The notes below the pieces were generated by a model. It was not told where the DNA came from, did not search any database, and worked only from the letters and a program-made list of their open reading frames with translations. A DNA stretch of 53,760 nt, taken from positions 1-53,760 of the forward strand of contig JAKSPY010000002.1 of the NCBI GenBank assembly GCA_024404445.1, in the 5' to 3' direction. Below are positions 32,549 through 52,300 of the stretch, piece after piece. Source of the stretch: Clostridia bacterium. GTDB lineage: Bacteria > Bacillota > Clostridia > Oscillospirales > CAG-272. Positions within the stretch are counted from its first letter, which is position 1; every line of letters begins with the position of its first letter. Both the position numbers and the translations under genes were made by a program.

Positions 32549-32935
32549 ATGAAAGACAAAAAGACCGTTATTTTGTATTTATCATTAGTGCTCGGCGGGA
32601 TCGCATCGGGATTTCTGAATGCGCTAATAGGTACGGGCGGCGGAATATTGATCACACTGATACTGAAAAAGCTGTACGAAAAAGACAATGCTTTCGGGGC
32701 GGAGGACGTGTTCGCGTCCACACTCGCGGCAGTGGCGATCATGAGTGCGGGCACAGTCGCCGTATACATTCTGCGCGGAACATTCGATCCCGCCGATGCC
32801 GTGCCGTATATCATTCCGGCCGTTTTCGGCGGAGCCGCAGGTGCGCTCGTTTTGGGCAGGATCAATTCGGAAATTTTCAAAAAGCTCTTTGCCATGTTGG
32901 TGATATGGGCGGGTGTGTCCATGATCGTGAGGTAG
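32549..32935 (+). CDS. TauE/SafE-family half-size membrane protein (first of two)
   Basis: 128 aa with 4 predicted TMs and GTGGGIL motifs typical of TauE/SafE anion exporters. Confidence 0.65.
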   Translation: MKDKKTVILYLSLVLGGIASGFLNALIGTGGGILITLILKKLYEKDNAFGAEDVFASTLAAVAIMSAGTVAVYILRGTFDPADAVPYIIPAVFGGAAGALVLGRINSEIFKKLFAMLVIWAGVSMIVR

Positions 32936-32936
32936 T

Positions 32937-33299
32937 ATGGATATAATCGTATCGTTTTTGGCGGCGGTGCTTGCCGGCACCGGGGTCGGCGGCGGCGGTC
33001 TGCTGATCATCTATCTGTCAGCGGTCAAAAATCTCAGCCAGCTGGCGTGTCAGGGTATCAATCTCGCTTTTTTTGAATCGGGTGCATTGTCGGCATTGCC
33101 CATACACATAAGGCACAGAAACTATAAGTGGGGTGCCGTGCTGACGCTGGGCATCGCGGGGCTTTTCGGCGCGCTCATTGGCTTTACCGTCGCGGAAAAG
33201 CTCGGCTCCGACGTGCTCAAATACGTCGTCGGGGTATTTTTCGTGCTGACCGGAATACGCGAGCTGTTCAAAAAGCCGCAAAAATCGCAAAAAAATTGA
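32937..33299 (+). CDS. TauE/SafE-family half-size membrane protein (second of two)
   Basis: 120 aa with GTGVGGGGLLII. It starts 1 nt after the preceding stop. Together the two genes approximate a full-length TauE. Confidence 0.65.
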   Translation: MDIIVSFLAAVLAGTGVGGGGLLIIYLSAVKNLSQLACQGINLAFFESGALSALPIHIRHRNYKWGAVLTLGIAGLFGALIGFTVAEKLGSDVLKYVVGVFFVLTGIRELFKKPQKSQKN

Positions 33300-35816: not shown

Positions 35817-35831
35817 TACCCACAGGGTACA

Positions 35832-35869
35832 AAAATCCGTCACTGCCGAAAGCAGTGACGGATTTTTTA
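35832..35869. terminator. Bidirectional intrinsic terminator (ends the LRR gene and the minus-strand peptide-export operon)
   Basis: aaaaatccgtcactgc-cgaa-agcagtgacggatttttt: a perfect 12-bp stem with an A-run and a T-run on either side. Confidence 0.8.
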
Positions 35870-35961
35870 TGTGTTGATCCGTTTCCTTATGATATCGCGG
35901 TGCGATTCATCAAAGGATGACACGATGCTTATGCCACTTACAAGGTTGCGACGCAGCGTGT

Positions 35962-36177
35962 TTATTCCGCGTTTTTATTGTCATCCGTAGCAGACTGATC
36001 GGAAAGACCGGTGCTTGCGTCGGCGTTGTCAGCAGATTGATTCACGGTTTTGTTTGTCAAGCGAAAGGACGACGATACAAACTTAGGCTTATCCCACAAA
36101 AAGATTTTCATGCCCCCTCCGCTGACCTTTTCCGCTTGCTTATCTGTAAGCTCAACAGGCTTATTTGTCTTTTTCAC
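35962..36177 (-). CDS. Double-glycine-leader peptide 3 (21-aa leader plus 50-aa core)
   Basis: MKKTNKPVELTDKQAEKVSGG|GMKIFLWDKPKFVSSSFRL...DDNKNAE. GTG start with AGAGGTG 5 nt upstream. Caveat: the GG codons (GGAGGGGGC) also mimic an SD for the internal ATG at 36111, so a 49-aa leaderless product cannot be excluded. Confidence 0.55.
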   Translation of the reverse strand: MKKTNKPVELTDKQAEKVSGGGMKIFLWDKPKFVSSSFRLTNKTVNQSADNADASTGLSDQSATDDNKNAE

Positions 36178-36234
36178 GCCGACACCTCTTTCTGTCTGTG
36201 ATTCTTTGACGCACTGCCCGAAATGGCAAAGCCA

Positions 36235-36567
36235 TCAATCGTTGATCTGATTTGCCCATGTGGGTGCGCTCGCGTGACCGATGATGAACAGTCTGGATAC
36301 TATTTCCGAGGAAAGCCTACTGATCTCATTTGTCAGAATACCGTGGGTGTAGCACGTCACCTCAAAATAATCCGAAGTTATCACGCCGGTGATGACCTCA
36401 CAGTAGTCATAACTATTATCGAGATTTCTGTTGATGCTTGTCGTTATATACTCGCCGCGCTGATAATCCTCGTTATCTATTCCGCCGAAAACGTATGCGA
36501 GTTCATCGTCTGTCAATTCTTCAGGTATATTCGTCTGATGTTTTTTTATGCTTTTTATCACTGTCAT
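36235..36567 (-). CDS. Double-glycine-leader protein 2 (29-aa leader plus 81-aa acidic core with 2 Cys)
   Basis: MTVIKSIKKHQTNIPEELTDDELAYVFGG|IDNEDYQRGEY.... Its ATG overlaps the TGA of the upstream 5'-nucleotidase gene (ATGA). There is no internal Met near the GG. Confidence 0.65.
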   Translation of the reverse strand: MTVIKSIKKHQTNIPEELTDDELAYVFGGIDNEDYQRGEYITTSINRNLDNSYDYCEVITGVITSDYFEVTCYTHGILTNEISRLSSEIVSRLFIIGHASAPTWANQIND

Positions 36568-38225
36568 TGCTTTATCGTTATCCTGTTATCTACCGTCTTA
36601 TACTGTGAAAGGTCGCCGTCCAACTGGCTGAGGTAATCTATCAGCACCTGATAAATCGGCAGGGCCTCATCGATCACAAGCTTATGATCCGCAAGGAAAT
36701 AGAGCATACCGGAGCCGCCGTTTTTGATCATATAGTCATGGCTGGCAAGGGTATACGTCGCATCAAGGTCGATAGGTGTATAGGCGCCGTCCTTTAACAC
36801 CATGACATCTGAAATGCGGCGTGCGCCGCCGACACCGATAAACGCATCCGTTTCATTGACCTGCACACTGCTGTCGACAGATGTGTCAACGGTGAATTTT
36901 AAGCCGGAAACCTGCTGGAAGCTGCCGTCCTCACCGAACGCTACACCGTCCCTGCTGTACTCTGCCTGTACGTTACGGTAGAAATACTCCATCATATCTA
37001 CGATCTCGGCACCCGTTACCTCAACGACGCAAATCGTATTGTCGTAAGGGTATACGGAGATGACATCGCCGTACGTAACGTCGCCCACGTTGAGATCGGC
37101 ACGGATGCCGCCGCCGTTGCACATTCCTATATCGGCACCGGTCAGAATGCGGTAAGCGTCCGCAACGAAATCGCCGATGGCGACCTCTCTGCTTCGTACC
37201 ATACGGATGCCGTCGCTGTCATAGCACGAAAGATCGGTGTCTATATGACCGATAACGGCCTTCATCTGATTATCCAACTGTTTGCGGATATCGGCGATCT
37301 GCGCCGTGATGGCGTCATCCTTGACTGTATATCTGTCTATGTAACCGACAGAGGCCGTGCCGTCATCTGTCAGAATAAGCTGTCCGATCGCCGACAGCTC
37401 TGTGCCTGTGGAGGATATCATCACATCCTCGCCGTCCTTATTCTGCATGATCCAGCAGGGTGCCTTAACGTGTGAATGCGCATCGAGGACGACGTCAATT
37501 CCCGTCGTATTAGCTACGAGATCGATCGACGTGAACGGCCCCTCTATATCCACGTCAATTCCAAGGTGAGAAAGCACGACGACAAAGTCGGCGCCCTTTT
37601 CATTGCATTCGTCAATGTACTTCTGCGCGTTATCATAAAAATGCCGGGCACCGTCCTTTTCACAGAAATCATAGACGAGCTCGCCGTTTTCCATGAAATG
37701 TTTAGGCGTGGAGGAGGAAATCGACCACGGAGTGGAAATACCGATAAACGCCACCTTTATATCGCCGTAGGTCACGATCTCATAGGGCTTTGTCGCTTCA
37801 CTCATCCAATCCTCGCCGCTTCCGGTGTACGAAATATTACAGTTAAGGAAATGTGAATCCGATAACTCTACTATCCTTTTCAGCTGATCCATACCGAAAT
37901 CAAACTCATGATTGCCGAAAATAGAGAAGTCGTATCCTACGGCGTTTTTCAATTCCACGATGTACTCGCCCTTTGAAACGACGCCCTCATAACTGCCCTG
38001 TACAAAATCGCCGCAATCGGCCAATACGACATAGCGGTATTTTTCGCTGAGGGATTTTTTATACGCGGAAAGACCGGCATAGCCGATATTGGTGTCAATT
38101 CCGCAATGCACATCGTTGGTAAACAATACCACGACGTCGTTTGATCTGTTGTCCTGTGCTCCGCACGCCGTCATGCAAAAGAGCATGGCCAAGCAGAGTA
38201 AAAGTGCAGATAATCTGAGCTTCAT
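36564..38225 (-). CDS. Lipoprotein bifunctional metallophosphatase/5'-nucleotidase
   Basis: Lipobox LFCMTACGAQ. Calcineurin-like motifs are NDVHCG, DCGDFVQG and GNHEFD, with a C-terminal 5'-nucleotidase substrate-binding domain. AAAGGAGAA RBS. Confidence 0.88.
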   Translation of the reverse strand: MKLRLSALLLCLAMLFCMTACGAQDNRSNDVVVLFTNDVHCGIDTNIGYAGLSAYKKSLSEKYRYVVLADCGDFVQGSYEGVVSKGEYIVELKNAVGYDFSIFGNHEFDFGMDQLKRIVELSDSHFLNCNISYTGSGEDWMSEATKPYEIVTYGDIKVAFIGISTPWSISSSTPKHFMENGELVYDFCEKDGARHFYDNAQKYIDECNEKGADFVVVLSHLGIDVDIEGPFTSIDLVANTTGIDVVLDAHSHVKAPCWIMQNKDGEDVMISSTGTELSAIGQLILTDDGTASVGYIDRYTVKDDAITAQIADIRKQLDNQMKAVIGHIDTDLSCYDSDGIRMVRSREVAIGDFVADAYRILTGADIGMCNGGGIRADLNVGDVTYGDVISVYPYDNTICVVEVTGAEIVDMMEYFYRNVQAEYSRDGVAFGEDGSFQQVSGLKFTVDTSVDSSVQVNETDAFIGVGGARRISDVMVLKDGAYTPIDLDATYTLASHDYMIKNGGSGMLYFLADHKLVIDEALPIYQVLIDYLSQLDGDLSQYKTVDNRITIKQ

Positions 38226-38287
38226 TTTTTATTCTCCTTTGATTGTCTTATAATCGATCGGTTTTCGCCTGCGCAAGCACACAGAAT

Positions 38288-38310
38288 TCGGGCCGATATC
38301 ATCGGCCCGA
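38288..38310 (-). promoter_or_regulatory. Perfect 10-bp stem-loop between peptide 1 and the nucleotidase gene (possible partial terminator or mRNA stabiliser)
   Basis: The minus-strand RNA reads UCGGGCCGAU-GAU-AUCGGCCCGA, followed by AUUCUGUGUG (a poor U-tract). Confidence 0.4.
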
Positions 38311-38350
38311 TGAAGACGTATCGCCGTCCGTGCGCCGTCGGATACGAAAA

Positions 38351-38575
38351 TCATTGCAATTCTTTTAGCCTCGTTTCCTGTTGGCTTTGACCTTTATCGC
38401 CTTCGGTACCGTTCCCACCGGCGGTATCGGTGCCGCCCGCCGCATTTACAAATGCGAGACTGTCGTCAGACAACTCCACGGCATCGCGGCTTTCGGTTTC
38501 GCGAATAAGCTCTTCCAGCTTTCTGTTCTTTTCAAATCTCTGATAGTCAAACAATTTTTTCAGCCTGTTTTCCAT
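38351..38575 (-). CDS. Double-glycine-leader peptide 1 (48-aa leader plus 26-aa hydrophilic core)
   Basis: MENRLKKLFDYQRFEKNRKLEELIRETESRDAVELSDDSLAFVNAAGG|TDTAGGNGTEGDKGQSQQETRLKELQ. GAGAGGAGAA RBS 8 nt upstream of the ATG. Confidence 0.65.
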   Translation of the reverse strand: MENRLKKLFDYQRFEKNRKLEELIRETESRDAVELSDDSLAFVNAAGGTDTAGGNGTEGDKGQSQQETRLKELQ

Positions 38576-38754
38576 AAAACATTCTCCTCTCGATTTCAGA
38601 TATTACGTCGCCGGAAACGGCGCCATTTTTTGTTTTTTACGCAAATAAGAAAATCTCCGATTGTCAATATTCTGCCCTGCGTTTTTTTGTATCACACATT
38701 TATACGAACTGTTTTGTGAAAAGGCTACTGTTTTTTTTATTTTTTTTGATTATT

Positions 38755-40950
38755 TTATTTTTCTTCGATATCCAGCCGCTGACGTTCGACAAGCGACGCA
38801 AAATACCCGTTCTTTGCGATCAGCTCATCGTAAGTACCCTCCTCGACGATCTTACCGTGATCCAGATATATGATGCGGTCGGCGTGTTGAATGGTTGACA
38901 GGCGGTGCGCGATGACTATCCTCGTGCATTTCAGTGAATCTATAGCCTCGGAAACCTTTCTTTGCGTGATGTTATCAAGCGCGCTTGTCGCCTCATCAAA
39001 CATCAATATCTTCGGCTTCGGAGCCACGGCCCGCGCAATCATCAGCCTCTGCTTCTGTCCGCCGGAAATACCGCCCTGCCCCTCTGAGATCATCGTATTC
39101 ATGCCCATCGGCATCTCACGGATATCATCGGCGATCGAGGCGATCTCCGCCGCCTCCCACGCCTGATCCATATTGAGCTCCGGAGCGGTGATGACGATAT
39201 TGGAATAGATGTCGCCGAGGAAAAGTTTTCCGTCCTGCATGACGACGCCGATCTTACGGCGCAACGACTCAGGGTCTATCCTTGCCATATCCTTCTTGTC
39301 AAAGAAGATACTGCCCTTTTGCGGTGTTTCAAATCCGAGCATCAGTCGTATCAGCGTGCTTTTTCCGCATCCGGTCGAACCGACAATGGCAAGGTATTCG
39401 CCTGTTTTTATTTTCAGAGAAAGATCGTCGATAACGTTGGGCATTGAGTCGTCATAACGGAACGACACGTGCGACAGCTCAATGGCGCCGCGCAGAGAAA
39501 CGATATTCTCCTTACCGTCGTGTACCTCCGGCTCCGCCTCCATGATCGGCCTCGACATTTCAAGCGTCGGCTTAATATTCGCGATAGTCACGGCAATCGA
39601 AACGACTGACATGAACGACGACGAAACCATGCCGTACGCGGTATTGAACGCATAATAATCCGCTATGCCGACGTTGTTCTTTATCGCCGTCGCATACAGC
39701 ACCAGCGCGCCGATAAGCGACAGTGCGAGGCTTAAAGTCCCGCTGAGCTTCAAAAACAGCGGCTGATCGTAGTTCAGCGCCGCCTCCTTGGCGTAATACC
39801 TTGCCCAACGAGAAAACATTCTTTTTTCCGCACCGGCAAGCTTGATCTTCTGAATTCCGGTGATGGTCGAATACGTCAGGCCGCTCGTTTTGGCGGACAA
39901 CTTCATCGTTTCGCTCGTGATCCTCATTTGTACAAACGTCGTCGCCAGCGACAGTACGATAGTCGCGGCGGTGATCAGCAATGACGGTACAACAAGTGAC
40001 GGAGCAAATACGAAAATCTGACCGATATAGATCAGCGAAAACAACGACGTAATTCCCGTCATACCGATAGTATTGAACAGCGTGGAGCACAACGACTGCA
40101 CATATGCGGCGCGCTGTGAAAGCTCACCGGACGAATACTGCTTAAAAAATGACGGCGGCAGGCTCATTATGCGGTTCATCACCGCAGCCTGTACCGATAT
40201 ATTCTGCTTGATACCGATGCGCGAATTGATCAAGCTCTGAAAAACGCCGAAGAACAGCCGACAGGCCGAAAAGCAGATCATGAATATTGCCAATGATATC
40301 AATACCCTGACGCTACCCGATTCGATGACATCGCTGAACAGCCATTTTGTAAACATCGGGGAAAGCAGACCGAGCGCGGCCGACGCGCCCATCAGCGCGA
40401 TATACAGAACAATATCGGAAATGCTCAATTGCTTTATCATGAATTTCAGCAAATCGCCGATATCCAGCGATTTCTGCGGCAACGGCTCATAAAAGCATAT
40501 AGCCTCGGAGTCGACGAGCTGCTCGGTTTTTCCGTTCATTCTGATTTGCTCGCCGGTCTTGATATTTTTCAGTGTGTAACCCGAAATCTTACCGGGAATC
40601 AGCGCGACGGCAGAGCCGTCCTCTTTCAGCGTGCCCAGCATTGCGCCGCTCGCGCAACGGTACCAGCCCTTATCAAGGATGACGGTGCGGCTTTTTATGC
40701 CGAACGGGCGCATACGGTACTCTATCTGCTCATCCAACGTTTTGATCTGTGTGGGAAGCTCATCGGAATTTGTTTTGCAATGATAGAATTTCAATATTTC
40801 TTCAATAGCCGATCCCGCAATCTCATTCTGACTGAGTGCCTCACGCAGGCGCGTGCCCATCACCGCATTCGCTATGGTATCTATGGCGTCGGCAACATCG
40901 GCGTTATCGGATCTTTCACGACTGCGTAATTGTTCCTCAAACCAACTCAT
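38755..40950 (-). CDS. Bacteriocin-type ABC transporter permease/ATPase without a peptidase active site (ABC2-like)
   Basis: A non-peptidase N-terminal domain of about 170 aa (no QxxxxCG motif), 6 TMs, Walker A GSTGCGKST, signature ISGGQKQR, Walker B ILMFDEATSALD. The start is taken at MSWFEEQ (40950), preceded by AAGGGGGG. Confidence 0.85.
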   Translation of the reverse strand: MSWFEEQLRSRERSDNADVADAIDTIANAVMGTRLREALSQNEIAGSAIEEILKFYHCKTNSDELPTQIKTLDEQIEYRMRPFGIKSRTVILDKGWYRCASGAMLGTLKEDGSAVALIPGKISGYTLKNIKTGEQIRMNGKTEQLVDSEAICFYEPLPQKSLDIGDLLKFMIKQLSISDIVLYIALMGASAALGLLSPMFTKWLFSDVIESGSVRVLISLAIFMICFSACRLFFGVFQSLINSRIGIKQNISVQAAVMNRIMSLPPSFFKQYSSGELSQRAAYVQSLCSTLFNTIGMTGITSLFSLIYIGQIFVFAPSLVVPSLLITAATIVLSLATTFVQMRITSETMKLSAKTSGLTYSTITGIQKIKLAGAEKRMFSRWARYYAKEAALNYDQPLFLKLSGTLSLALSLIGALVLYATAIKNNVGIADYYAFNTAYGMVSSSFMSVVSIAVTIANIKPTLEMSRPIMEAEPEVHDGKENIVSLRGAIELSHVSFRYDDSMPNVIDDLSLKIKTGEYLAIVGSTGCGKSTLIRLMLGFETPQKGSIFFDKKDMARIDPESLRRKIGVVMQDGKLFLGDIYSNIVITAPELNMDQAWEAAEIASIADDIREMPMGMNTMISEGQGGISGGQKQRLMIARAVAPKPKILMFDEATSALDNITQRKVSEAIDSLKCTRIVIAHRLSTIQHADRIIYLDHGKIVEEGTYDELIAKNGYFASLVERQRLDIEEK

Positions 40951-40963
40951 TATCCGACCCCCC

Positions 40964-43135
40964 TTATTCCGCGCTGACAAGATCGCGGTAGACGGTGCTG
41001 TTCTCCATCAGCTCCTTATGCGTTCCGCGATCTGTGATCTCGCCGTGTTCCATTACTATTATTTCATCGCACGAGCGTATCGTCGACAGTCTGTGCGCAA
41101 TGACGATACAGGTTATACCGCGTTCGCGGATAGCCTTTACGACCTCATATTCCGTCTTGGCGTCGAGCGCGCTCGTCGCCTCATCAAGGATGATTATCGT
41201 CGGCTCCTGCGCAAGCGCACGCGCGATCTCAATACGCTGTCTCTGCCCGCCGGAGAAGTCCTTACCTCCCTCGATCAGCTTGTGCTGATAGCCCTTCGGG
41301 CGTTGCATGATGTCGTCGTGTATCTGTGCGTCATGTGCGGCAAGTATCATCTCAAAGTCCTCGATGCTTTTGTCCCACATCTTGATATTATTTGCGATAG
41401 TGTCCTCAAACAGTATAATATCCTGATCCACAACGGCAAGTGAGCCGCGGAAAACATTTTTCGATATGCTGTTCATCGGTTTACCGTCGAACAGGATCTC
41501 GCCGCTCCACGGGTGATAAAGACCCGCAATCAGCTTTGACATCGTGGACTTACCGCATCCGGAGCCGCCGACGATGGCGACACTCTTACCGGGCGTGACC
41601 TTCATGCTGAAATCCTTTATCAGCGGATCGGCAAGAGGCGAATAACCGAATACGACGTTTTTCAGCTCTATTTCGCCGGACAGCTTCTGCTGTTCACCGA
41701 CGTCGCTTTGCTCATTGAATACTATATCGTCGGGATATTCCATGACGTCGTCGACACGCTCCATCTGTGTGCGCATTTCCTGCAACGTCTGACCCGCACT
41801 GATGAGGGTCATGGCAGGCGACATGAACGCCGTCAAAAATCCCTGAAACGCCATTATCATACCGACAGTGAACTGCCCCTGCATCGTCAGCCATACGCCG
41901 AGGAACAGTACCGCGTTATTTGCCACCGTAGATACGAACTGCGGTATCATGCCGAGGTACTGATTCAGCTTCATGAATTTTACCTGCTGGGTATTCACGC
42001 TGGCCTGATAGCCTGCCCATTTCTTGAAATACCCGTTTTCCGAGCCGGATGCCTTGATGGTTTCGATCATTTCGATACCGGCAACGGTTGCTGAAGACAG
42101 CTTCGCGCTGTCACGCATCGAAACACGCGTGACATTGATGCGCTTTTTGGATATGTATCTGGAAATGACGGCATTCACCGTGAGTGCGGCAAGGCCTATT
42201 ATCGTCAGCATCACATTGTAACGCAATATAACGACGAGATAGAATACCATCATCACGGCATTAAGCATCAGCGGGGCGAACGTGCCTATCAGCGTATTTG
42301 CTATCGACGCATTGGCACTCTGTCGGCCCTGTATGTCACCCGCCATGCGCTGTGAAAAGAATTTCATCGGCATTTTCAGTATTTTCCACATATACGTCGC
42401 ACTTCCGACCGACGCCATTTTACCTTTTATGCGAAGCGAGTATATCGCCTGCAATGCCGACATGACGATCTCCACCAGATCAAACACGCCGAGAAACAGC
42501 AAAAACGGAGTTGCCCACCCGGAATCTTTGCCCGTCAGCAGATGATCGAGAAAAATACGGGAGAACGCCGGCTGAACAAATCCCATCAATGCCGCGATAA
42601 CGCCCGTCAGCACAGTGAAAGCGAGCGCCGTTCCCGTACCCTGCAGACGTTTTGACGCAAATGACAGCATGCTTTTCGGCTTACCCGACGGCTCAAACGT
42701 GTCTGACGGCTCAAACTGCAGGCAGATGCCGGTAAAAGATTCATCAAACGTGTCCATGGCGACACTGTACGTTCCCTTTGCGGGGTCGTTCAGATATGCT
42801 CTTCCGCCCTTGAAGCCGTCAAGAACAACAAAGTGATTGAAATTCCAATGTATGATGCACGGGAATTTACCGTGCTCTCTGAGTGTGTCGGGCTCATAGC
42901 GATAGCCCTTTGCCTTGAGGCCGTAGTACCGCGCGGCCTTTAACACGTTACGCGCATTCGATCCGTCGCGCGATACACCGCAGTCCTCACGCACCTGCTC
43001 CAGCGGCACCCATTTATTATAATAGGCCAAAACCATACAAAGGCTTGCCGCACCGCATTCCAATGCCTCCAACTGCATGACGACAGGTACGTTGGCTACG
43101 CCCGTTTTTATCGGATGTTTTCTGTTTTTTGCCAT
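40964..43135 (-). CDS. Peptidase-C39-domain bacteriocin ABC exporter (peptidase/permease/ATPase; ABC1-like)
   Basis: The N-terminal C39 domain has an intact triad context: VMQLEALECGAASLCMVLAYY (Cys), NHFVVLDG (His), AYLNDPAKG (Asp). It also has 6 TMs, Walker A GGSGCGKST, signature FSGGQRQR and Walker B IIILDEATSALD. Confidence 0.92.
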   Translation of the reverse strand: MAKNRKHPIKTGVANVPVVMQLEALECGAASLCMVLAYYNKWVPLEQVREDCGVSRDGSNARNVLKAARYYGLKAKGYRYEPDTLREHGKFPCIIHWNFNHFVVLDGFKGGRAYLNDPAKGTYSVAMDTFDESFTGICLQFEPSDTFEPSGKPKSMLSFASKRLQGTGTALAFTVLTGVIAALMGFVQPAFSRIFLDHLLTGKDSGWATPFLLFLGVFDLVEIVMSALQAIYSLRIKGKMASVGSATYMWKILKMPMKFFSQRMAGDIQGRQSANASIANTLIGTFAPLMLNAVMMVFYLVVILRYNVMLTIIGLAALTVNAVISRYISKKRINVTRVSMRDSAKLSSATVAGIEMIETIKASGSENGYFKKWAGYQASVNTQQVKFMKLNQYLGMIPQFVSTVANNAVLFLGVWLTMQGQFTVGMIMAFQGFLTAFMSPAMTLISAGQTLQEMRTQMERVDDVMEYPDDIVFNEQSDVGEQQKLSGEIELKNVVFGYSPLADPLIKDFSMKVTPGKSVAIVGGSGCGKSTMSKLIAGLYHPWSGEILFDGKPMNSISKNVFRGSLAVVDQDIILFEDTIANNIKMWDKSIEDFEMILAAHDAQIHDDIMQRPKGYQHKLIEGGKDFSGGQRQRIEIARALAQEPTIIILDEATSALDAKTEYEVVKAIRERGITCIVIAHRLSTIRSCDEIIVMEHGEITDRGTHKELMENSTVYRDLVSAE

Positions 43136-43145
43136 GTCGCGCTCC

Positions 43146-43565
43146 TCAATTCAGAACGAATGACATCGGGCGGTAGCTTTCGACCACGAGCTTAGCGTCA
43201 TAGAAGCCGTCCGCGAGAGAAGAACCCAACGATAAAACACATGCATATCCGGATTCACCGTTTTCGCCGATGTCGGTGATGACGGCATCGCAGTCGGCAA
43301 GCTTTACGGTCATACCGACCCGTGCCGATGAAATATTCTCCTCTGAAATATAGCAAACAGCGTCCCCGTTTTCCACGCGGACAATGACCGGCACCGTGCT
43401 GTCTATATGGCCGAATACGCCCCAAACGCAGGCACCCGCCAGCAGAATGATCACGCTGACCAGAATCAGCCACACGCCGGGATTTGACACGCGGATATAA
43501 TCGTCAAGGTTTTCCGGTGATTTGACCCTGTCCAGACTTTTCTTTCTGAATATTTCTTCATTCAT
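43146..43565 (-). CDS. Short HlyD-like bacteriocin-secretion accessory protein
   Basis: FRKKSLDRVKSPENLDDYIRVSNPGVWLILVSVIILLAGACVWGVFG matches the conserved N-terminus and TM of NHLP/NHLM-type HlyD secretion proteins. The protein is only 139 aa, with no coiled-coil hairpin. AAGGAGAA RBS. Confidence 0.7.
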   Translation of the reverse strand: MNEEIFRKKSLDRVKSPENLDDYIRVSNPGVWLILVSVIILLAGACVWGVFGHIDSTVPVIVRVENGDAVCYISEENISSARVGMTVKLADCDAVITDIGENGESGYACVLSLGSSLADGFYDAKLVVESYRPMSFVLN

Positions 43566-43661
43566 TTCTCAGTTTCTCCTTGATACTTATTCACCTTGAC
43601 CGGATCAGCGACTGTTCCGGTGCGCGTGCGTATACCGATATAAAATAATAAACCATTATGT

Positions 43662-43690
43662 ATTATATCATATCACCGCGTATAAGTCAA
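43662..43690 (-). promoter_or_regulatory. Near-consensus extended -10 promoter of the peptide-export operon
   Basis: The minus strand reads TTGACT (43685-43690), 17 nt spacer, TATAAT (43662-43667), with TGa immediately upstream of the -10. It lies about 95 nt upstream of the HlyD-like start. Confidence 0.65.
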
Positions 43691-43940: not shown

Positions 43941-44597
43941 ATGCAAGAAATATCTTTCAGGCTCGTATCCTTTCTGATCGCGGCTTTCGCGTTCGGATTC
44001 GGCGCCGTCTGCCTGTTCAGAAAGAAAAAGCCGCTGTACTTTCAACTGCTTGTATGCGCGGCAGGGTGCTATTGTATCGCACAGCTCGCGACAGTCATCA
44101 ATATCTGGTGCGCCGTGACCTCATCCGTCAGCGTCGGTATGCTGGGTATTTTCGGATGCAATTTCTTTTTGCTGTCGGCGAATTTCGGTACGCTGGACCG
44201 CATCGTCGATGACGGCAGTAATACAAAAGGTCCGGCGCGCGCCGCCGTCATTGCTCCGGTCGTCATGGCCGCGGCCACTGTTGCGGCCTTCTGCGCATGG
44301 GTAAAAAGCGATACATTCTGTGCCTTGGCGTGGGTGATCATGTTATTGCCCGCCCTGCCGGCGTCGTACTTTAATCTGAAGCACATACTGTTGCCGATAG
44401 ACGCATTCGGCTTTTTGCGGGCGACGAAGCCCTGCAATATCATAGCCATCGTATTTTACGTGATGACCGCGGCATACGTCATCGGTTCCGCGTTGGGTAG
44501 CGGCACCGTCGGCGGAATTCTGTCGATATTGATGTCGCTGACCGTTATAGGTCTGACGCTTGCGGCCGTCAAGGGGGCGAAGCAATGGGGAATCTGA
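43941..44597 (+). CDS. 7-TM membrane protein of unknown family (PrsW partner, copy 1)
   Basis: 218 aa with about 7 hydrophobic segments. It shares the motifs K(K/G)KPLYFQ, GCY, ANxG, (F/Y)NL(K/R)H, P(I/V)D and AVKGAxxW with the ORF at 51610-52254. Confidence 0.7.
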   Translation: MQEISFRLVSFLIAAFAFGFGAVCLFRKKKPLYFQLLVCAAGCYCIAQLATVINIWCAVTSSVSVGMLGIFGCNFFLLSANFGTLDRIVDDGSNTKGPARAAVIAPVVMAAATVAAFCAWVKSDTFCALAWVIMLLPALPASYFNLKHILLPIDAFGFLRATKPCNIIAIVFYVMTAAYVIGSALGSGTVGGILSILMSLTVIGLTLAAVKGAKQWGI

Positions 44598-45214
44598 ATC
44601 TTATCCTGTTCATCAGCTTTGCCGCTCCGCTTCTGATGACGCTGTTCGTCTGCCGCGGGAAAGCGAGAACGCTGTTGATTTTTTTGTTTTTCGGTACTGT
44701 CGTGTGTCTGTTCTGCGGTGAATTCAGTGCCATATTACTGAAAACACTTCCGTTCGACCGTCGGTACTTCACGTCCAATTTCACACCACTGTTCGAGGAG
44801 GTATTCAAGGCCGTTCCGATACTCGTTTTTGCGTTTTTGTTCCAGCCGAAAAAGCGCACGTTATTGGAATGCTCACTGTTGGTCGGGGTCGGATTTGCGG
44901 TTTTGGAAAACGCGTTCATCCTCGGCGGATCGGCTACGTCGGTTTCCGTCGTCAATGCGCTGATACGCGGTTTCGGTGCCGGCATGATGCACGGCGTATG
45001 CACGTTGGCCGTCGGATACGGCATGACGTTCGTTCACACGAGACGTAAGCTTTTCTATACCGGCACGATCGCGCTGCTGTCCACGGCGACTATATACCAT
45101 GCGATCTATAATACGTTGGTACAGTCCAATCATCAGCTGGTCGGATTCATATTGCCGGTTGCCACGTTCATCCCCGTCCTTATCCTGCTGAACAAAACTG
45201 CGGGTTTCGACTGA
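44585..45214 (+). CDS. PrsW-family intramembrane protease (copy 1)
   Basis: PrsW signature motifs are present: FEEVFK (EExxK), GFAVLENAF (FxxxE), GAGMMHGV (H) and IYHAIYN (HxxxN). Length is 209 aa. It overlaps the upstream gene by 13 nt. Confidence 0.8.
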   Translation: MGNLNLILFISFAAPLLMTLFVCRGKARTLLIFLFFGTVVCLFCGEFSAILLKTLPFDRRYFTSNFTPLFEEVFKAVPILVFAFLFQPKKRTLLECSLLVGVGFAVLENAFILGGSATSVSVVNALIRGFGAGMMHGVCTLAVGYGMTFVHTRRKLFYTGTIALLSTATIYHAIYNTLVQSNHQLVGFILPVATFIPVLILLNKTAGFD

Positions 45215-48810: not shown

Positions 48811-50622
48811 TTATCGGCAAACAAAGGTTATGATCAGTTTATTCGTTTCAAAAACGTGCATATAGCCGATATCGGACGCGACATTGCTGACAATCCGTAT
48901 GCCGATATTTTTCGTTTTGTCTGCACCCTTCGCATTTGCTTTCCCGATCAGTTCAGTAATATCATAATGCGGACAATTGTCGCTCAGTCTGATCACAAAT
49001 CTGTCGTCAGTGATAACGGCACGAAAATCGATGATAGGATGTGCGGAACGGTTTTTGACGAATCCGTATTCTACGATATTATTTGCCAGCTCTTCGACCG
49101 AAAGCGCGGCAAAATATGCGATTTTACTATCGATCTTGTGCCCTTTGCAGAACAACATGACCTGTTCTGATGCGAGAACGACGTCATACATATCACGAAT
49201 GTCGAGAGAAATGACATCGCCGGGTTTCAAATAGAATTCGTCGGAAAGGCTGAGATAATCATCCCGCTTCGGTAATTTGCCGCGTTTTTTCACGGTATAG
49301 AAAACAAATATCGCCAGCAGAGTGAGCGCGTCACTGACCGTGTAGCAGGCCAGAATACCGTAAACGCCGAATCGCTTTCCCAGCACAAACGCGGACAATA
49401 AAACGAACACGAGGTGTCCCGCCAATATCAGCAGATTCATATTGATTCTTTTATAAACCGACTGAAGATATTTGATTCGGCCCTCAATGAGCGCCTGAAG
49501 CGGGGTCTGAAGCGCAAGCATCCTTATCGCAAACGTCACCATTGTCCGAACCTCGTCGTTTTCGGTAACGTAGAGGCCTGCAATAGGTTTCGCAAATACA
49601 AGCAGCAGTACGCATACAGAGCCCGCGAAAGCGGCAATCATTTTATGAGCATAAGTTGTGACCTCGTCGATAGCCTCCACATTGACCTCGCCGAAATATA
49701 CTCCGGTCAGCAGAGAAACGGCAGACGCGATGCCCGCACCGAAAATCTGAGCGAAATTCGCAAAATTATTGCGCACCGAAAGAGCCGCCATAGCCACTGT
49801 GCCGCCGTACCCGATAATAATGATATTCAGTACGATCGGGCGGATTATATTGGCGATACGTTTGACCGCTTTTTCGTTGCCGTTGGCAAGCATCCTGATA
49901 AATTCAATAACCGGAATATTCGGCTTGACCAAATGAAGCATTCTGTCCTTCTTTTTGATAAAATGACTGCATTGATAGAGCAGATTCATCATACTTGCGA
50001 CAGATGTCGCCAAACCGACACCGAATATTCCCCAGCCTATTTTAATGGCGATCAAATCAAGCACCACATCGGCAACAGCCTCGATCAGCGCGCCCGTCTG
50101 AATGGTTTTGCGTCCGCTGTCAAGCTGTATGGCGGAGGCAAGAATGACCGTCATAATGAGAGGCGGAACGCCGAATCCGAGCCCCATTGCGTATTTTGAC
50201 GCAGGCTCAAGTAGATTCGCCGCGTTTTCAGATACGCCGAGCAAAACGGCAAACGGCTTTGAAAATACAATGATCAATACTGCTGTGAGCAACGAAACAG
50301 CCGTTCCGCAATAGACCGTAGCACTGAAAAAACGCACAAATTCATCACGATTACCGCGACCTATCGAGCGGGAACAGCGCACCTGCATTCCGATGGCAAG
50401 CACACCGCTGATGACACCGAGGATGCTGAAAAGCGGATGAATGATACCCTCGGCCGCCATTTCATCCGGGCCGAGATACCGACTTATCATAAGCCCGTCG
50501 ATAAATCCGGCGCCGACCTGCGAGAACTCAATGATCATTCCCGTCAGAAGCAGTGAGAAAAACGTTTTATCTGTTATTATCCATCGATGGCGTTTCCATT
50601 TTGACGAAAAAAACGAGCTCAT
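48811..50622 (-). CDS. MATE-family transporter fused to a C-terminal GHKL (HATPase_c, RsbW/SpoIIAB-like) domain
   Basis: The first 460 aa or so are a 12-TM MATE (FIDGLMISRYLGPDEMAA...). The last 135 aa or so carry an N-box-like motif EELANNIVEYG, a degenerate G1 motif SDNCPHYD and a G2-like motif IGIRIVSNVA. Confidence 0.7.
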   Translation of the reverse strand: MSSFFSSKWKRHRWIITDKTFFSLLLTGMIIEFSQVGAGFIDGLMISRYLGPDEMAAEGIIHPLFSILGVISGVLAIGMQVRCSRSIGRGNRDEFVRFFSATVYCGTAVSLLTAVLIIVFSKPFAVLLGVSENAANLLEPASKYAMGLGFGVPPLIMTVILASAIQLDSGRKTIQTGALIEAVADVVLDLIAIKIGWGIFGVGLATSVASMMNLLYQCSHFIKKKDRMLHLVKPNIPVIEFIRMLANGNEKAVKRIANIIRPIVLNIIIIGYGGTVAMAALSVRNNFANFAQIFGAGIASAVSLLTGVYFGEVNVEAIDEVTTYAHKMIAAFAGSVCVLLLVFAKPIAGLYVTENDEVRTMVTFAIRMLALQTPLQALIEGRIKYLQSVYKRINMNLLILAGHLVFVLLSAFVLGKRFGVYGILACYTVSDALTLLAIFVFYTVKKRGKLPKRDDYLSLSDEFYLKPGDVISLDIRDMYDVVLASEQVMLFCKGHKIDSKIAYFAALSVEELANNIVEYGFVKNRSAHPIIDFRAVITDDRFVIRLSDNCPHYDITELIGKANAKGADKTKNIGIRIVSNVASDIGYMHVFETNKLIITFVCR

Positions 50623-52254: not shown

Positions 52255-52300
52255 TTTTCCCCTTTTAGTTAGTTAAAGTTAGAAGTTAACTTTTCACTTC

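What the first reader, a model, noticed from the sequence alone, without database searches (positions are those of the whole stretch)
35832..43690. Operon with a C39-peptidase ABC export trio and three GG-leader cargo genes but no maturase
What the sequence shows:
- A near-consensus extended -10 promoter (43662-43690) drives a minus-strand gene string: a HlyD-like gene (139 aa), then a C39-peptidase/ABC gene, then a peptidase-less ABC gene.
- Next come a 74-aa ORF, a lipoprotein 5'-nucleotidase, a 110-aa ORF and a 71-aa ORF.
- The only convincing terminator is the bidirectional hairpin at 35832-35869.

Established knowledge: the three transport genes resemble the three-gene NHLP/Nif11-type (NHLM) bacteriocin export cassette described by Haft and colleagues. 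That cassette normally accompanies long-leader RiPP precursors and their modifying enzymes.

Here no cyclodehydratase, lanthionine synthetase, radical SAM or other maturase is present. The three cargo candidates are unlike classical cationic or hydrophobic bacteriocins. There is also no two-component system that would point to a ComC/BlpC-type pheromone.

Inference: this is a dedicated exporter for a set of unmodified, leader-cleaved peptides or small proteins of unknown function. It is comparable to the still-unexplained PCAT1/CtA pair of Clostridium thermocellum, but has three different cargos and a co-operonic nucleotidase.
Basis: partly seen in the sequence, partly recalled or inferred. 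Interest (0 to 1): 0.85.

Follow-up and report, generated by a model that had tools for sequence, protein, structure and literature searches.

The report
Peptide-export operon with orphan regulatory propeptide
This is a real but fairly ordinary gut-Clostridia peptide/small-protein exporter operon; its one unusual feature is that the 74-aa "cargo" belongs to an undescribed propeptide family that in relatives always sits beside an ECF sigma factor, which is missing here.

Summary
The exporter is the LahT/NHLM type. ABC1 passes the NHLM_ABC1 cutoff, and its protease domain aligns over all 147 residues with the crystallised LahT150. ABC2 is just below its cutoff. The 139-aa "HlyD" has only a membrane helix and a beta-barrel.

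This three-gene cassette is widespread in Clostridia (164 genome matches). Cargo sets vary, and 13 of 31 cargo-bearing loci have no maturase, so "no maturase" is not exceptional.

The three small ORFs are not equivalent:
- **s110 and s71** are near-orphan proteins with canonical GG leaders (V-4, L/A-7, L-12). They are the likely unmodified cargo.
- **The 74-aa ORF (S74)** has a 46-aa highly conserved leader, invariant Ala-Ala where GG should be, and a fast-evolving tail. In relatives it sits next to an ECF sigma factor (27 of 28 sigma-containing loci, 0 of 18 without).

A conserved promoter, TAGCCnTTT-N12-TCGTATAAA, precedes S74 and the cargo genes. The window has one copy, so the string holds two transcription units. 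The sigma gene is absent from the window. The nucleotidase is a Sec-type lipoprotein and is rarely linked to the cassette (4 of 80 loci).

S74's role is inferred only: a sigma-linked regulator processed by the exporter, or a pheromone.

The parts
43662..43690 (-). Housekeeping (sigma-A type) promoter with extended -10, driving the three transport genes
   Evidence: TTGACT-17-TATAAT with TG, 11/12. Similar TGnTATAAT promoters lie upstream of the homologous gene in many relatives.
43146..43565 (-). c0: 139-aa minimal membrane-fusion-like accessory protein (cytoplasmic tail, one TM helix, extracytoplasmic beta-barrel)
   Evidence: Only residues 13-58 match NHLM_micro_HlyD, at model positions 1-46 of 421 (34.5 bits, cutoff 156). 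The family has 632 clusters; nearly all of the 120 listed are 139 aa. AF2 model: TM helix 29-51 and beta domain 54-131 with pLDDT about 84. Best PDB fold hits are the membrane fusion protein BesA (4kks) and a chain of a MacAB-TolC complex (9qgy_G), both weak (E 0.02-0.07).
40964..43135 (-). ABC1: C39-peptidase / permease / ATPase (PCAT), LahT-type
   Evidence: TIGR03796 940 bits (cutoff 853). Peptidase_C39 + ABC_membrane + ABC_tran. Residues 1-147 align end to end with LahT150 (PDB 6MPZ, E 2e-72); the query Cys27 aligns with the Cys at position 27 of LahT, which the paper names as the catalytic residue (PMC6363468). Full-length match to PCAT1 4ry2, E 1e-97.
38755..40950 (-). ABC2: permease / ATPase without peptidase domain (probable heterodimer partner)
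   Evidence: TIGR03797 692 bits (cutoff 709), far above any other model. The ATG at 40950 is preceded by GGGGGG. The N-terminal ~180 aa has no Pfam or PDB match.
38700..38726 (-). Conserved cargo/S74 promoter motif AGCCTTTT-N11-TCGTATAA (ECF / sigma-W-like -10)
   Evidence: Single match in the window, 0 expected by chance. PWM 26.6 bits against 9.3 for the next best site. Across window plus 80 loci: 38 hits on the cassette strand against 5 on the other strand, and 32 of the 38 lie within 200 nt upstream of S74 or GG-leader cargo. Associated with the sigma gene, p = 5e-5.
38351..38575 (-). S74: conserved 46-aa three-helix leader with invariant Ala-Ala at the cleavage position, plus a variable disordered tail. 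It is the sigma-linked propeptide, here without its sigma.
   Evidence: HMM hits in 32 loci and 68 clusters in the protein database, none named. 18 invariant leader positions in 45 sequences. AF2: helices 2-12, 18-31 and 37-45, tail pLDDT below 50. No Pfam or NCBIfam family. Only the last 14 leader residues align to Nif11-like leaders, which places A45-A46 on their G-G.
38226..38350 (-). Structured GC-rich spacer with a 10-bp hairpin (38310-38288) and no U-tract. Possible attenuator or processing site. This is where relatives with the same gene order carry the sigma gene.
   Evidence: MFE -44.6 kcal/mol, z = -3.2. Hairpin listed. L046 has ABC2 - motif - S74 - sigma - nucleotidase. No sigma remnant found.
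36564..38225 (-). Lipoprotein 5'-nucleotidase (Sec/Lsp-exported, not PCAT cargo)
   Evidence: Metallophos + 5_nucleotid_C. N-terminus MKLRLSALLLCLAMLFCMTAC has a lipobox-like motif. Homologues lie near the cassette in 4 of 80 loci.
36235..36567 (-). s110: orphan GG-leader small protein (29-aa leader, 81-aa acidic mature part with 2 Cys). Probable exported cargo.
   Evidence: Leader ...EELTDDELAYVFGG places L-12, L-7, V-4 and GG as LahT150 requires (PMC6363468). Its ATG overlaps the nucleotidase stop codon as ATGA. Only one near-identical cluster in 5.8 billion proteins.
35962..36177 (-). s71: near-orphan GG-leader peptide (leader ...VELTDKQAEKVSGG). Probable exported cargo.
   Evidence: Good Shine-Dalgarno sequence (AGAGGTG) before the GTG start. 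One distant homologue, P0191, shares the leader and the mature N-terminus MKI.L.D.PKF. P0191 heads an array of seven Nif11-like GG cargo genes in L081. Weak hit to the CTB bacteriocin leader model (E 5e-4).
35831..35867 (.). Bidirectional intrinsic terminator shared with the convergent BspA-type LRR gene
   Evidence: 16-bp stem, 7 GC pairs, T-runs on both sides.

Best explanation
The region holds a LahT/NHLM-type peptide-processing ABC exporter and the genes it serves, arranged as two nested transcription units.

**Unit 1.** A strong housekeeping promoter (43690-43662) drives three genes: the minimal membrane-fusion-like protein c0, the C39-peptidase ABC protein ABC1, and its peptidase-less partner ABC2.

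**Unit 2.** No terminator follows ABC2. Directly after it lies a conserved alternative-sigma promoter (TAGCCnTTT-N12-TCGTATAAA). It heads S74, a lipoprotein 5'-nucleotidase, s110 and s71, and the unit ends at the hairpin at 35831-35867.

**Cargo.** s110 and s71 are lineage-specific cargo. ABC1 recognises the amphipathic end of their leaders (V-4, L/A-7, L-12), cuts after GG, and the ABC1/ABC2 pair exports the unmodified mature proteins. The nucleotidase leaves by the Sec/lipoprotein route and is a lineage-specific passenger.

**S74.** S74 is the regulatory element of the system, not ordinary cargo. In relatives it forms a unit with an ECF sigma factor that reads the conserved promoter. My preferred mechanism is inferred and not shown. 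The long invariant leader would bind and restrain the sigma factor. Engagement or cleavage by the exporter at the atypical Ala-Ala site would relieve that restraint. Cargo transcription would then be matched to free export capacity, in a logic like FlgM. In this genome the sigma gene has been lost from the locus. S74 and the cargo genes then depend on read-through from the upstream promoter or on a sigma factor encoded elsewhere.
For: **Exporter identity**
- Model scores for ABC1 and ABC2.
- Full-length alignment of the ABC1 protease domain to LahT150, with the Cys27 position conserved; about 75-79% identity between LahT147 and the ABC1 proteins of the related loci.
- c0-ABC1-ABC2 synteny in every locus long enough to show it.

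**Cargo**
- The leader registers of s110 and s71 fit the LahT150 mutagenesis rules (PMC6363468, section 8).
- The s71 homologue heads a GG-cargo array.
- s110 is translationally coupled to the nucleotidase.
- Relatives carry maturase-free GG cargo, including an NlpC/P60 enzyme.

**Two transcription units**
- The motif is unique in the window.
- It is strand- and position-specific across loci: 38 against 5 hits, with 32 of 38 directly upstream of S74 or cargo.

**S74 as the sigma-linked element**
- Among 46 loci with at least 4 kb after ABC2: sigma and S74 together in 27, sigma alone in 1, neither in 18, S74 alone in 0 (p = 7e-12).
- The motif tracks the sigma gene (p = 5e-5).
- 18 invariant residues lie in the 46-aa leader, while tail identity falls to the shuffled baseline (0.39 against 0.36) once the leader diverges.
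- Leader divergence follows sigma divergence more closely than exporter divergence: r = 0.88, and partial r = 0.73 given ABC1, permutation p = 5e-4.
- Fifteen loci show no other GG-type ORF near the exporter.
- The sigma proteins are minimal ECF-type, about 160-190 aa.

**Sigma loss**
- L046, L061 and L027 share the window's order ABC2 - motif - S74 and then carry the sigma gene.
- No sigma gene or remnant is found anywhere in the window.
- A related strain has the same sigma-less arrangement.
Against: - There are no expression or biochemical data for any part.
- s110 has no homologue and s71 has one, so their reality rests on motifs, position and translation signals.
- The promoter hexamers also resemble a weak housekeeping promoter (TAGCCA-17-TATAAA, 9/12). 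Its assignment to the ECF sigma rests on co-occurrence.
- The anti-sigma role of S74 has no direct support. S74 has no similarity to known anti-sigma domains, and I could not model a complex.
- PCAT cleavage normally leaves the leader in the cytoplasm, so relief of inhibition needs an extra step such as degradation or loss of affinity.
- Tails are conserved within sub-clades (EFVPFESREDNSDD; FNMTGGTIS), which also fits a secreted signal.
- The mirror-tree signal could reflect shared transfer history of two adjacent genes.
- The window's S74 has Asp at the nearly invariant Tyr31, so it may be decaying.
Confidence: 0.55

Rival explanations
1. S74 is the precursor of a secreted signalling peptide (pheromone). 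The exporter cleaves the leader and releases the short variable tail. The tail is sensed by a receptor outside the conserved neighbourhood, or is re-imported, and activates the ECF sigma factor. The sigma factor then drives S74 and the cargo genes in an autoinduction loop, as with ComC/BlpC but with a sigma factor in place of a two-component system.
For: - The S74 gene lies behind the sigma-associated promoter, which would give positive feedback.
- Several loci consist only of exporter + sigma + S74, like a self-contained signalling module.
- Tails are short and diversify quickly between clades, yet are conserved within them, as pherotypes are.
- Gly at +1 and an acidic residue at +2 are conserved.
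Against: - No receptor, histidine kinase or membrane anti-sigma factor is conserved beside the pair.
- The invariant part is the 46-aa leader. That is far longer than the 13 residues a C39 domain needs (PMC6363468) and has many invariant polar residues.
- Tails are acidic, Gly/Asn-rich and predicted disordered. Tail length ranges widely, from fewer than 10 to about 80 residues.
- Ala-Ala sits at the cleavage position instead of GG/GA/GS.
Confidence: 0.25
2. One reading: one 7.8-kb operon encodes a dedicated exporter for three equivalent, unmodified GG-leader cargos, and the nucleotidase is a functional partner of the exported products.
For: - No terminator lies between the upstream promoter and 35831, so read-through of the whole string is plausible.
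- All three small ORFs carry a leader-like segment.
- The nucleotidase is translationally coupled to s110.
- A nucleotidase also follows S74-sigma in the distant relative L046.
Against: - S74 differs in kind from s110 and s71: it is a conserved family, is sigma-linked, has AA where GG should be, and its GG in the window is not conserved.
- An internal conserved promoter is present.
- A nucleotidase lies near the cassette in only 4 of 80 loci, at varying positions, and it carries its own lipoprotein signal.
Confidence: 0.12
3. s110 and s71 are not functional genes. They are decaying remnants or chance ORFs, and the cassette is a degenerate locus that has lost its sigma factor and its real cargo.
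For: - Both are orphans or near-orphans in billions of proteins.
- The sigma gene is missing.
- S74 carries Asp at the nearly invariant Tyr31.
- The mature parts are unlike classical bacteriocins.
Against: - All three transport genes are intact and well conserved: about 80-85% identity to relatives for the ABC proteins.
- The leaders fit the -12/-7/-4/GG register exactly. My leader pattern found only these three ORFs and one spurious hit on that strand of the window.
- s71 has a Shine-Dalgarno sequence, and s110 has an ATGA overlap with the upstream gene.
- The s71 homologue sits in a bona fide cargo array.
- Near-identical copies of s110 and S74, the latter in the same arrangement, occur in independent samples.
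- Hypervariable cargo is typical of these systems (PMC2887384).
Confidence: 0.1
4. This is a RiPP locus whose maturase is encoded elsewhere in the genome and acts in trans on s110, s71 or S74.
For: - About half of the related loci with cargo carry a radical SAM/SPASM maturase.
- Haft et al. note precursors in genomes without a clustered maturase (PMC2887384).
- s110 has two Cys.
Against: - Cargo in maturase-containing loci is Cys-rich (median 6 Cys) with long Nif11-like leaders. s110 and s71 have short leaders of about 21-29 aa with no extra recognition region and 2 and 0 Cys.
- 13 related loci also have cargo without a maturase.
Confidence: 0.08

Closest known systems
LahT (AMS/PCAT transporter of the lah cluster, Lachnospiraceae bacterium C6A11; LahT150 protease domain, PDB 6MPZ; Bobeica et al. 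2019, PMC6363468)
   Same: - The ABC1 protease domain aligns with LahT150 over all 147 residues (E 2e-72), and the Cys27 position is conserved.
- The same recognition logic (V-4, L-7, L-12, small residues at -1/-2) fits s110 and s71.
- Relatives of the window carry arrays of Nif11-type precursors, as the lah cluster does.
   Different: - The window has no Nif11-type precursors and no modifying enzyme.
- The paper's text does not mention a sigma factor or an S74-like peptide.
NHLM three-gene export cassette (TIGR03794 HlyD-like, TIGR03796 ABC-peptidase, TIGR03797 ABC; Haft et al. 2010, PMC2887384)
   Same: - The gene order is the same: accessory protein, peptidase-ABC, ABC.
- ABC1 is above its trusted cutoff and ABC2 is the clear best match to its model.
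- Cargo is hypervariable behind a conserved leader.
   Different: - The accessory protein is 139 aa instead of about 420 aa. It keeps only the N-terminal membrane segment and a beta-barrel. That fits an organism without an outer membrane, though I did not check the envelope type.
- No NHLP/Nif11 precursor or maturase is present in this locus.
PCAT1 and its substrate CtA (Clostridium thermocellum; PDB 4RY2 and later structures)
   Same: - A C39-ABC exporter next to an unmodified, leader-bearing small-protein substrate of unknown function.
- Full-length sequence match, E 1e-97.
   Different: - PCAT1 has been studied as a homodimer with no known accessory protein (my own knowledge). Here there are two different ABC proteins plus c0.
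- The window's system belongs to a large family with a recognisable regulatory module.
ComAB/ComC and BlpAB/BlpC pheromone export in streptococci
   Same: A PCAT plus accessory protein exports a GG-leader peptide whose gene is under the control of the circuit it feeds.
   Different: - No two-component sensor is present; the linked regulator in relatives is an ECF sigma factor.
- ComB and BlpB are full-length membrane fusion proteins (my own knowledge).
- In S74 the conserved part is the leader, not the mature peptide.
FlgM / sigma-28 secretion checkpoint (my own knowledge, not tested here)
   Same: Proposed logic only: a small, largely disordered regulator of a sigma factor is also a substrate of an export machine, so transcription reports export competence.
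   Different: - The export machine is different (flagellar type III).
- FlgM is exported whole, whereas a PCAT cuts off the leader and keeps it inside the cell.
- There is no sequence similarity.
ECF sigma / anti-sigma control of RiPP clusters (MibX-MibW, microbisporicin) and sigma-W/RsiW/PrsW of Bacillus subtilis (my own knowledge)
   Same: - An ECF sigma factor is dedicated to a peptide-antibiotic locus.
- The -10 element CGTATA resembles sigma-W promoters.
   Different: - The known anti-sigma factors are membrane proteins with recognisable domains. S74 is a 54-128-aa soluble propeptide with an exporter recognition segment.
- The -35 element (TAGCC) is unlike the usual AAC motif.

Membership tests
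NHLM (NHLP/Nif11-type) export cassette | ABC-peptidase subunit reaching the TIGR03796 trusted cutoff | tested here: met
   940.4 bits against a cutoff of 853.3, aligned end to end.
NHLM (NHLP/Nif11-type) export cassette | Peptidase-less ABC subunit reaching the TIGR03797 trusted cutoff | tested here: inconclusive
   692.4 bits against a cutoff of 709.4. This is by far the best model (next best 347 bits) but lies just under the curated cutoff.
NHLM (NHLP/Nif11-type) export cassette | Full-length HlyD-like membrane fusion protein (TIGR03794, about 420 aa) | tested here: not met
   34.5 bits against a cutoff of 156.2. Only model positions 1-46 of 421 are matched. The protein is 139 aa, as are nearly all listed family members.
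NHLM (NHLP/Nif11-type) export cassette | Neighbouring NHLP or Nif11-type long-leader precursors with a modifying enzyme | tested here: not met
   None in the window. They are present in many relatives: Nif11-like cluster c4 with the radical SAM/SPASM cluster c3.
PCAT / AMS transporters (peptidase-containing ABC transporters) | N-terminal C39 domain with catalytic Cys, plus a transmembrane domain and a nucleotide-binding domain | tested here: met
   Peptidase_C39 3e-31, ABC_membrane, ABC_tran. Cys27 aligns with the Cys at position 27 of LahT, named catalytic in PMC6363468.
PCAT / AMS transporters (peptidase-containing ABC transporters) | Substrates with a double-Gly-type leader: hydrophobic residues at -4, -7 and -12, and GG/GA/GS at -2/-1 | tested here: met
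   - s110: L-12, L-7, V-4, GG.
- s71: L-12, A-7, V-4, GG (rule from PMC6363468).
- S74 keeps L-12, L-7 and V-4 but has A-A at -2/-1. Whether that is cleaved is not testable here.
ECF sigma / anti-sigma regulatory pair | ECF sigma gene adjacent to and co-transcribed with its regulator | tested here: not met
   There is no sigma-70-family gene in the window. The feature is met in 27 related loci (sigma70-ECF model 1.9e-32).
ECF sigma / anti-sigma regulatory pair | Regulator carries a recognisable anti-sigma domain or demonstrably binds the sigma factor | tested here: not met
   S74 and a homologue have no Pfam or NCBIfam hit. Binding is not testable with these tools. Only co-occurrence and correlated divergence are available.
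Class II (unmodified) bacteriocin locus | Cationic or hydrophobic mature peptide with an adjacent immunity gene | tested here: not met
   The mature s110 and s71 sequences are acidic/polar. No small membrane immunity gene lies within the transcription unit.
ComC/BlpC-type pheromone circuit | Adjacent histidine kinase and response regulator | tested here: not met
   None among the window's flanking genes, and none among the conserved neighbours in relatives.

The most novel reading that the evidence does not exclude
The S74 family is a new kind of regulator. It is a propeptide whose long invariant leader binds a dedicated ECF sigma factor, and whose C39-recognition segment (with Ala-Ala in place of Gly-Gly) makes it a substrate, or a slow pseudo-substrate, of the PCAT exporter. 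Exporter occupancy would then set sigma activity and so the transcription of bacteriocin/RiPP cargo. This would be a FlgM-like secretion checkpoint in Gram-positive peptide export, spread across gut Oscillospiraceae and Lachnospiraceae.
Probability: 0.3. Interest if true: 0.8.

Novelty: new variant of a known kind. Interest (0 to 1): 0.55.

Why it matters
PCAT exporters of gut Clostridia release bacteriocins, RiPPs and small proteins that shape microbiome competition. LahT150 from this same family is already a standard tool for removing leader peptides. How these operons are regulated is essentially unknown.

The comparison done here yields three testable items:
- a conserved promoter;
- a dedicated ECF sigma factor;
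- an unannotated propeptide that links that sigma factor to the exporter.

Several cultured relatives carry them, for example Sporofaciens musculi, Eubacterium sp. 14-2 and Petralouisia muris.

For this window the practical message is more modest. It is a sigma-less, maturase-free member of the family with two private cargo proteins. It is not a unique unexplained system.

Tried and rejected
- **Homologue search for s110.** Only its own cluster was found, so conservation could not be used to support it.
- **Exhaustive HMMER search for s71.** It found s71 itself and one weak hit.
- **N-terminal ~180 aa of ABC2 against PDB sequences.** Nothing meaningful, so I could not say whether it is a degenerate C39-like domain.
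- **Rfam scan of 35.5-44.2 kb at a permissive threshold.** Only chance-level hits at the terminator, so there is no known riboswitch or leader RNA.
- **Search for a remnant of the sigma gene** in the S74-nucleotidase spacer and across the whole window by tblastn. None found.
- **DNA comparison with the closely related strain contig L086.** Only 25 differences in 2 kb, too few to measure selection on S74.
- **The neighbouring membrane-protein + PrsW-protease pair as a possible anti-sigma/protease module.** Rejected as part of the system because it has no counterpart in any of the 80 loci.
- **Three literature searches** for a link between double-glycine peptides or PCATs and sigma factors. Nothing relevant was returned. 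The ECF classification paper and the Haft paper do not mention such a link.

Full report
**1. Checking the observation**

All described features are present. On the minus strand a near-consensus promoter, TTGACT-17-TATAAT with TG at the extended -10 position, lies at 43690-43662. It is followed by these ORFs:
- a 139-aa ORF (43565-43146);
- a 723-aa ORF (43135-40964);
- a second large ORF ending at 38755;
- a 74-aa ORF (38575-38351);
- a 553-aa ORF (38225-36564);
- a 110-aa ORF (36567-36235);
- a 71-aa ORF with a GTG start (36177-35962).

The 16-bp hairpin at 35831-35867 is the only strong terminator. It also ends the convergent BspA-type LRR gene.

Pfam and NCBIfam assign the genes as follows:
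- The 723-aa protein has Peptidase_C39 + ABC_membrane + ABC_tran and scores 940 bits on NHLM_micro_ABC1 (cutoff 853).
- The next protein scores 692 bits on NHLM_micro_ABC2 (cutoff 709).
- The 553-aa protein is a 5'-nucleotidase (Metallophos + 5_nucleotid_C) with a lipoprotein-type N-terminus.
- The 139-aa protein matches only positions 1-46 of the 421-position NHLM HlyD model.

ABC2 most likely starts at the ATG at 40950, behind a GGGGGG ribosome-binding site.

The rest of the window is ordinary chromosomal housekeeping: HPr kinase, LepA, RNase J, FtsK and others. It has no LanM, YcaO or radical SAM/SPASM maturase and no two-component system near the operon.

**2. The exporter belongs to a large, partly characterised family**

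The 139-aa protein (c0) has 632 homologous clusters, and nearly all of the 120 listed are 139 aa. A scan of one genome per species found 164 matches. I fetched 80 of them with flanks. All are Clostridia, mainly Oscillospiraceae and Lachnospiraceae, and they include cultured Sporofaciens musculi, Murimonas intestini, Petralouisia muris, Eubacterium sp. 14-2 and an Oscillibacter.

In every locus long enough to show it, the order is c0 - ABC1 - ABC2.

The AlphaFold model of c0 has a disordered cytoplasmic tail, one membrane helix (29-51) and an 80-residue beta domain with pLDDT about 84. Its best PDB fold matches are the membrane fusion protein BesA and a chain of a MacAB-TolC complex. These matches are weak (E 0.02-0.07). 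I read c0 as a membrane fusion protein reduced to anchor plus beta-barrel.

The first 147 residues of ABC1 align end to end with LahT150, the crystallised double-glycine protease of Lachnospiraceae C6A11 (E 2e-72). The Cys27 position, which the paper names as catalytic, is conserved. LahT147 is about 75-79% identical to the ABC1 proteins of the related loci. ABC1 also matches full-length PCAT1 (E 1e-97) and ComA.

So the transport part is a LahT/NHLM-type PCAT with a shortened accessory protein.

**3. What the relatives carry next to the exporter**

Clustering the neighbouring ORFs gave several recurrent partners:
- **Nif11-like long-leader, Cys-rich precursors**, often in arrays, together with radical SAM/SPASM enzymes.
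- **Other GG-leader small proteins without any maturase.** Examples are the MKTKEELNALKEEVE...LTDEELAQVTGG peptides and a GG-leader NlpC/P60 enzyme in L005 (34 bits).
- **An ECF-type sigma factor** (sigma70-ECF model, 1.9e-32).
- **Partner-switching genes**, often upstream of c0: PP2C phosphatase, RsbW-like kinase, STAS protein and a MatE-HATPase_c_2 fusion.

Of 46 loci with at least 4 kb after ABC2, 31 have at least one GG-leader ORF other than S74. Of these, 18 have a radical SAM enzyme and 13 do not. "Exporter with cargo but no maturase" is therefore common in this family.

**4. The three small ORFs are not equivalent**

The LahT150 study showed that the last 13 leader residues are enough for recognition. 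It also showed that V-4, L-7 and L-12 are the critical side chains and that GG, GA and GS are cut (PMC6363468, sections 8-9).

- **s110** (...EELTDDELAYVFGG|IDNE...) fits this register exactly.
- **s71** (...VELTDKQAEKVSGG|GMKI...) fits with Ala at -7.

Both are near-orphans:
- s110 has only its own 99%-identical cluster among 5.8 billion proteins.
- s71 has one distant relative, P0191 (E 9e-4). P0191 shares the leader and the mature N-terminus MKI.L.D.PKF. It is the first gene of an array of seven Nif11-like cargo genes.

Their translation signals are plausible. The s110 ATG overlaps the nucleotidase stop codon as ATGA, and s71 has an AGAGGTG ribosome-binding site. I accept them as probable lineage-specific, unmodified cargo.

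**5. S74 is a conserved, sigma-linked propeptide**

The 74-aa ORF has relatives in 32 of the fetched loci and 68 clusters in the protein database. None is named, and no Pfam or NCBIfam model matches.

Its first 46 residues are strikingly conserved, with 18 invariant positions in 45 sequences. These include F9, Y11, Q12, R13, F14, E15, N17, E26, T27, E28, S29 and R30. The model shows three helices. The tail is predicted to be disordered. Tail length ranges widely, from fewer than 10 to about 80 residues.

Tail identity falls to the shuffled baseline (0.39 against 0.36) once leader identity drops below about 0.75. Tails are nevertheless conserved within sub-clades.

A profile-profile comparison aligns only the last 14 leader residues with Nif11-like leaders. 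That alignment places the invariant A45-A46 on their G-G. The family therefore has Ala-Ala at the canonical cleavage position, followed by a nearly invariant Gly and usually an acidic residue.

**6. S74, the sigma factor and a promoter form one module**

Among the 46 informative loci, sigma and S74 occur together in 27, sigma alone in 1, neither in 18 and S74 alone in 0 (Fisher p = 7e-12). The two genes are adjacent, in either order.

A conserved motif, TAGCC(A/C)TTT-N12-TCGTATAAA, lies upstream of S74 or of the first cargo gene:
- It has 38 hits on the cassette strand against 5 on the other strand.
- 32 of the 38 lie within 200 nt upstream of S74 (13), Nif11-like cargo (14) or other GG cargo (5).
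- It tracks the sigma gene (21 of 28 loci with sigma against 2 of 18 without; p = 5e-5).

Its -10 part resembles ECF promoters of the sigma-W type. This comparison rests on my own knowledge. The hexamers also read as a weak housekeeping promoter (TAGCCA-17-TATAAA), so assigning it to the ECF sigma is an inference from co-occurrence and position.

In many of the closer relatives I inspected, the exporter genes sit behind housekeeping-type TGnTATAAT promoters.

S74-leader divergence follows sigma divergence (r = 0.88) more closely than ABC1 divergence. The partial r given ABC1 is 0.73 (permutation p = 5e-4). The reverse partial, S74 with ABC1 given sigma, is 0.22. This supports the two being an evolutionary unit, although adjacency alone could produce it.

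**7. How the window fits**

The window has exactly one copy of the motif, at 38726-38700. It lies 31 nt after the ABC2 stop codon and 125 nt before S74.

This order, ABC2 - motif - S74, is the one seen in L027, L046 and L061, where the sigma gene follows S74. In L046 a 5'-nucleotidase follows the sigma gene.

In the window the sigma gene is missing. Between S74 and the nucleotidase there is only a 125-nt GC-rich, strongly folded spacer (-44.6 kcal/mol, z = -3.2). It holds no sigma remnant, and no sigma-70-family gene occurs anywhere in the 53.7 kb.

A related strain has the same sigma-less arrangement.

The window's S74 also carries Asp at the nearly invariant Tyr31.

A nucleotidase homologue lies near the cassette in only 4 of 80 loci, at different positions. 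The window's nucleotidase has its own lipoprotein signal, so I treat it as a passenger gene and not as a component.

**8. Mechanism**

Shown or strongly supported:
- A housekeeping promoter drives c0-ABC1-ABC2.
- No terminator separates them from a second promoter that heads S74 - nucleotidase - s110 - s71.
- s110 and s71 carry leaders that the ABC1 protease family is known to cut.

Inferred:
- ABC1 and ABC2 work as a heterodimer with c0.
- s110 and s71 are exported unmodified.
- In relatives the ECF sigma factor reads the conserved promoter.

Most speculative is the role of S74. I favour a sigma antagonist that is also an exporter substrate, so that free export capacity relieves inhibition. 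My reasons are:
- The invariant part is a 46-aa leader, far longer than a C39 domain needs.
- The only conserved partner besides the exporter is a minimal ECF sigma factor with no other regulator nearby.
- The cleavage site is atypical.

Two things count against this:
- S74 has no similarity to known anti-sigma domains.
- PCATs normally leave the leader in the cytoplasm.

The main rival is a secreted pheromone whose pherotype-like tails feed back on the sigma factor. It is supported by loci that consist only of exporter + sigma + S74. It is weakened by the lack of any conserved receptor.

**9. Comparison with known systems, and novelty**

- **Membership.** The locus meets the PCAT definition and the ABC1 criterion of the NHLM cassette. 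It narrowly misses the ABC2 cutoff. It fails the full-length HlyD and the precursor/maturase criteria.
- **Closest known.** It works like LahT and PCAT1. The transport part is known.
- **Novelty.** I found no description of the sigma-S74-promoter module. Three full-text searches, the LahT paper, the Haft paper and the ECF classification paper do not mention it. The shortened accessory protein also matches no curated family.
- **Verdict.** This is a new variant of a known kind, seen here in an incomplete, sigma-less form. As a finding about this window it is moderately interesting.

Noticed in passing
window 43941-45214 (+) and 50993-52254 (-): Two paralogous gene pairs, each a ~215-aa multi-pass membrane protein followed by a PrsW-family intramembrane protease. 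The membrane proteins are 29% identical and the proteases 41%. One pair is divergent from the exporter promoter. Neither has a counterpart in the 80 related loci. PrsW is the site-1 protease of the sigma-W anti-sigma factor in Bacillus (my own knowledge), so the proximity is curious.
   Followed up: partly
window 48811-50622 (-): A fusion of a MatE (MATE efflux) domain with an RsbW/SpoIIAB-type HATPase_c_2 domain. The same fusion (cluster c8) lies next to the exporter cassette in 8 related loci, usually with a PP2C/SpoIIE phosphatase, an RsbW-like kinase and a STAS protein. That suggests a partner-switching module associated with these exporters.
   Followed up: partly
window 32549-33299 (+): Two adjacent ORFs of 128 and 120 aa, separated by one base, each match half of the TauE/SafE sulfite-exporter model. 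The first matches model positions 128-237 and the second matches positions 3-113. This is either a split (two-half) transporter or a frameshifted gene.
   Followed up: no
L005 5518-5949: In a close relative, the first gene behind the conserved promoter is a GG-leader protein whose mature part is an NlpC/P60 cell-wall hydrolase domain (34 bits, cutoff 23). This exporter family therefore probably secretes a folded enzyme.
   Followed up: partly
L081 7876-13152: The only homologue of s71 heads an array of seven Nif11-like, Cys-rich GG-leader genes. The array lies directly downstream of a serine recombinase and a small HTH-domain gene, and no exporter lies within 10 kb. It may be a mobile cargo cassette.
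   Followed up: no
proteins P0127, P0130 (S74 family): Some S74 relatives have long tails that match the GLUG motif (PF07581). Others show repeats of the type GG(L/I)(T/S)G. Tail content therefore ranges from a few residues to a repeat domain.
   Followed up: no
window 43146-43565 (c0 family, alignment A1): Two Cys residues in the extracytoplasmic beta domain (C71, C109) are invariant across 25 family members. They may form a disulfide or bind a metal in an anaerobe's cell envelope.
   Followed up: no
window 51000-53760: GC content drops from about 0.50 to 0.37-0.39 at the right end of the window. The drop covers the second PrsW pair and a 464-aa ORF with no Pfam match. This may be horizontally acquired DNA.
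   Followed up: no
window 38226-38350 (-): The spacer between S74 and the nucleotidase folds unusually strongly (-44.6 kcal/mol, z = -3.2) around a 10-bp GC hairpin with no U-tract. It has no Rfam match. It lies where relatives carry the sigma gene.
   Followed up: partly
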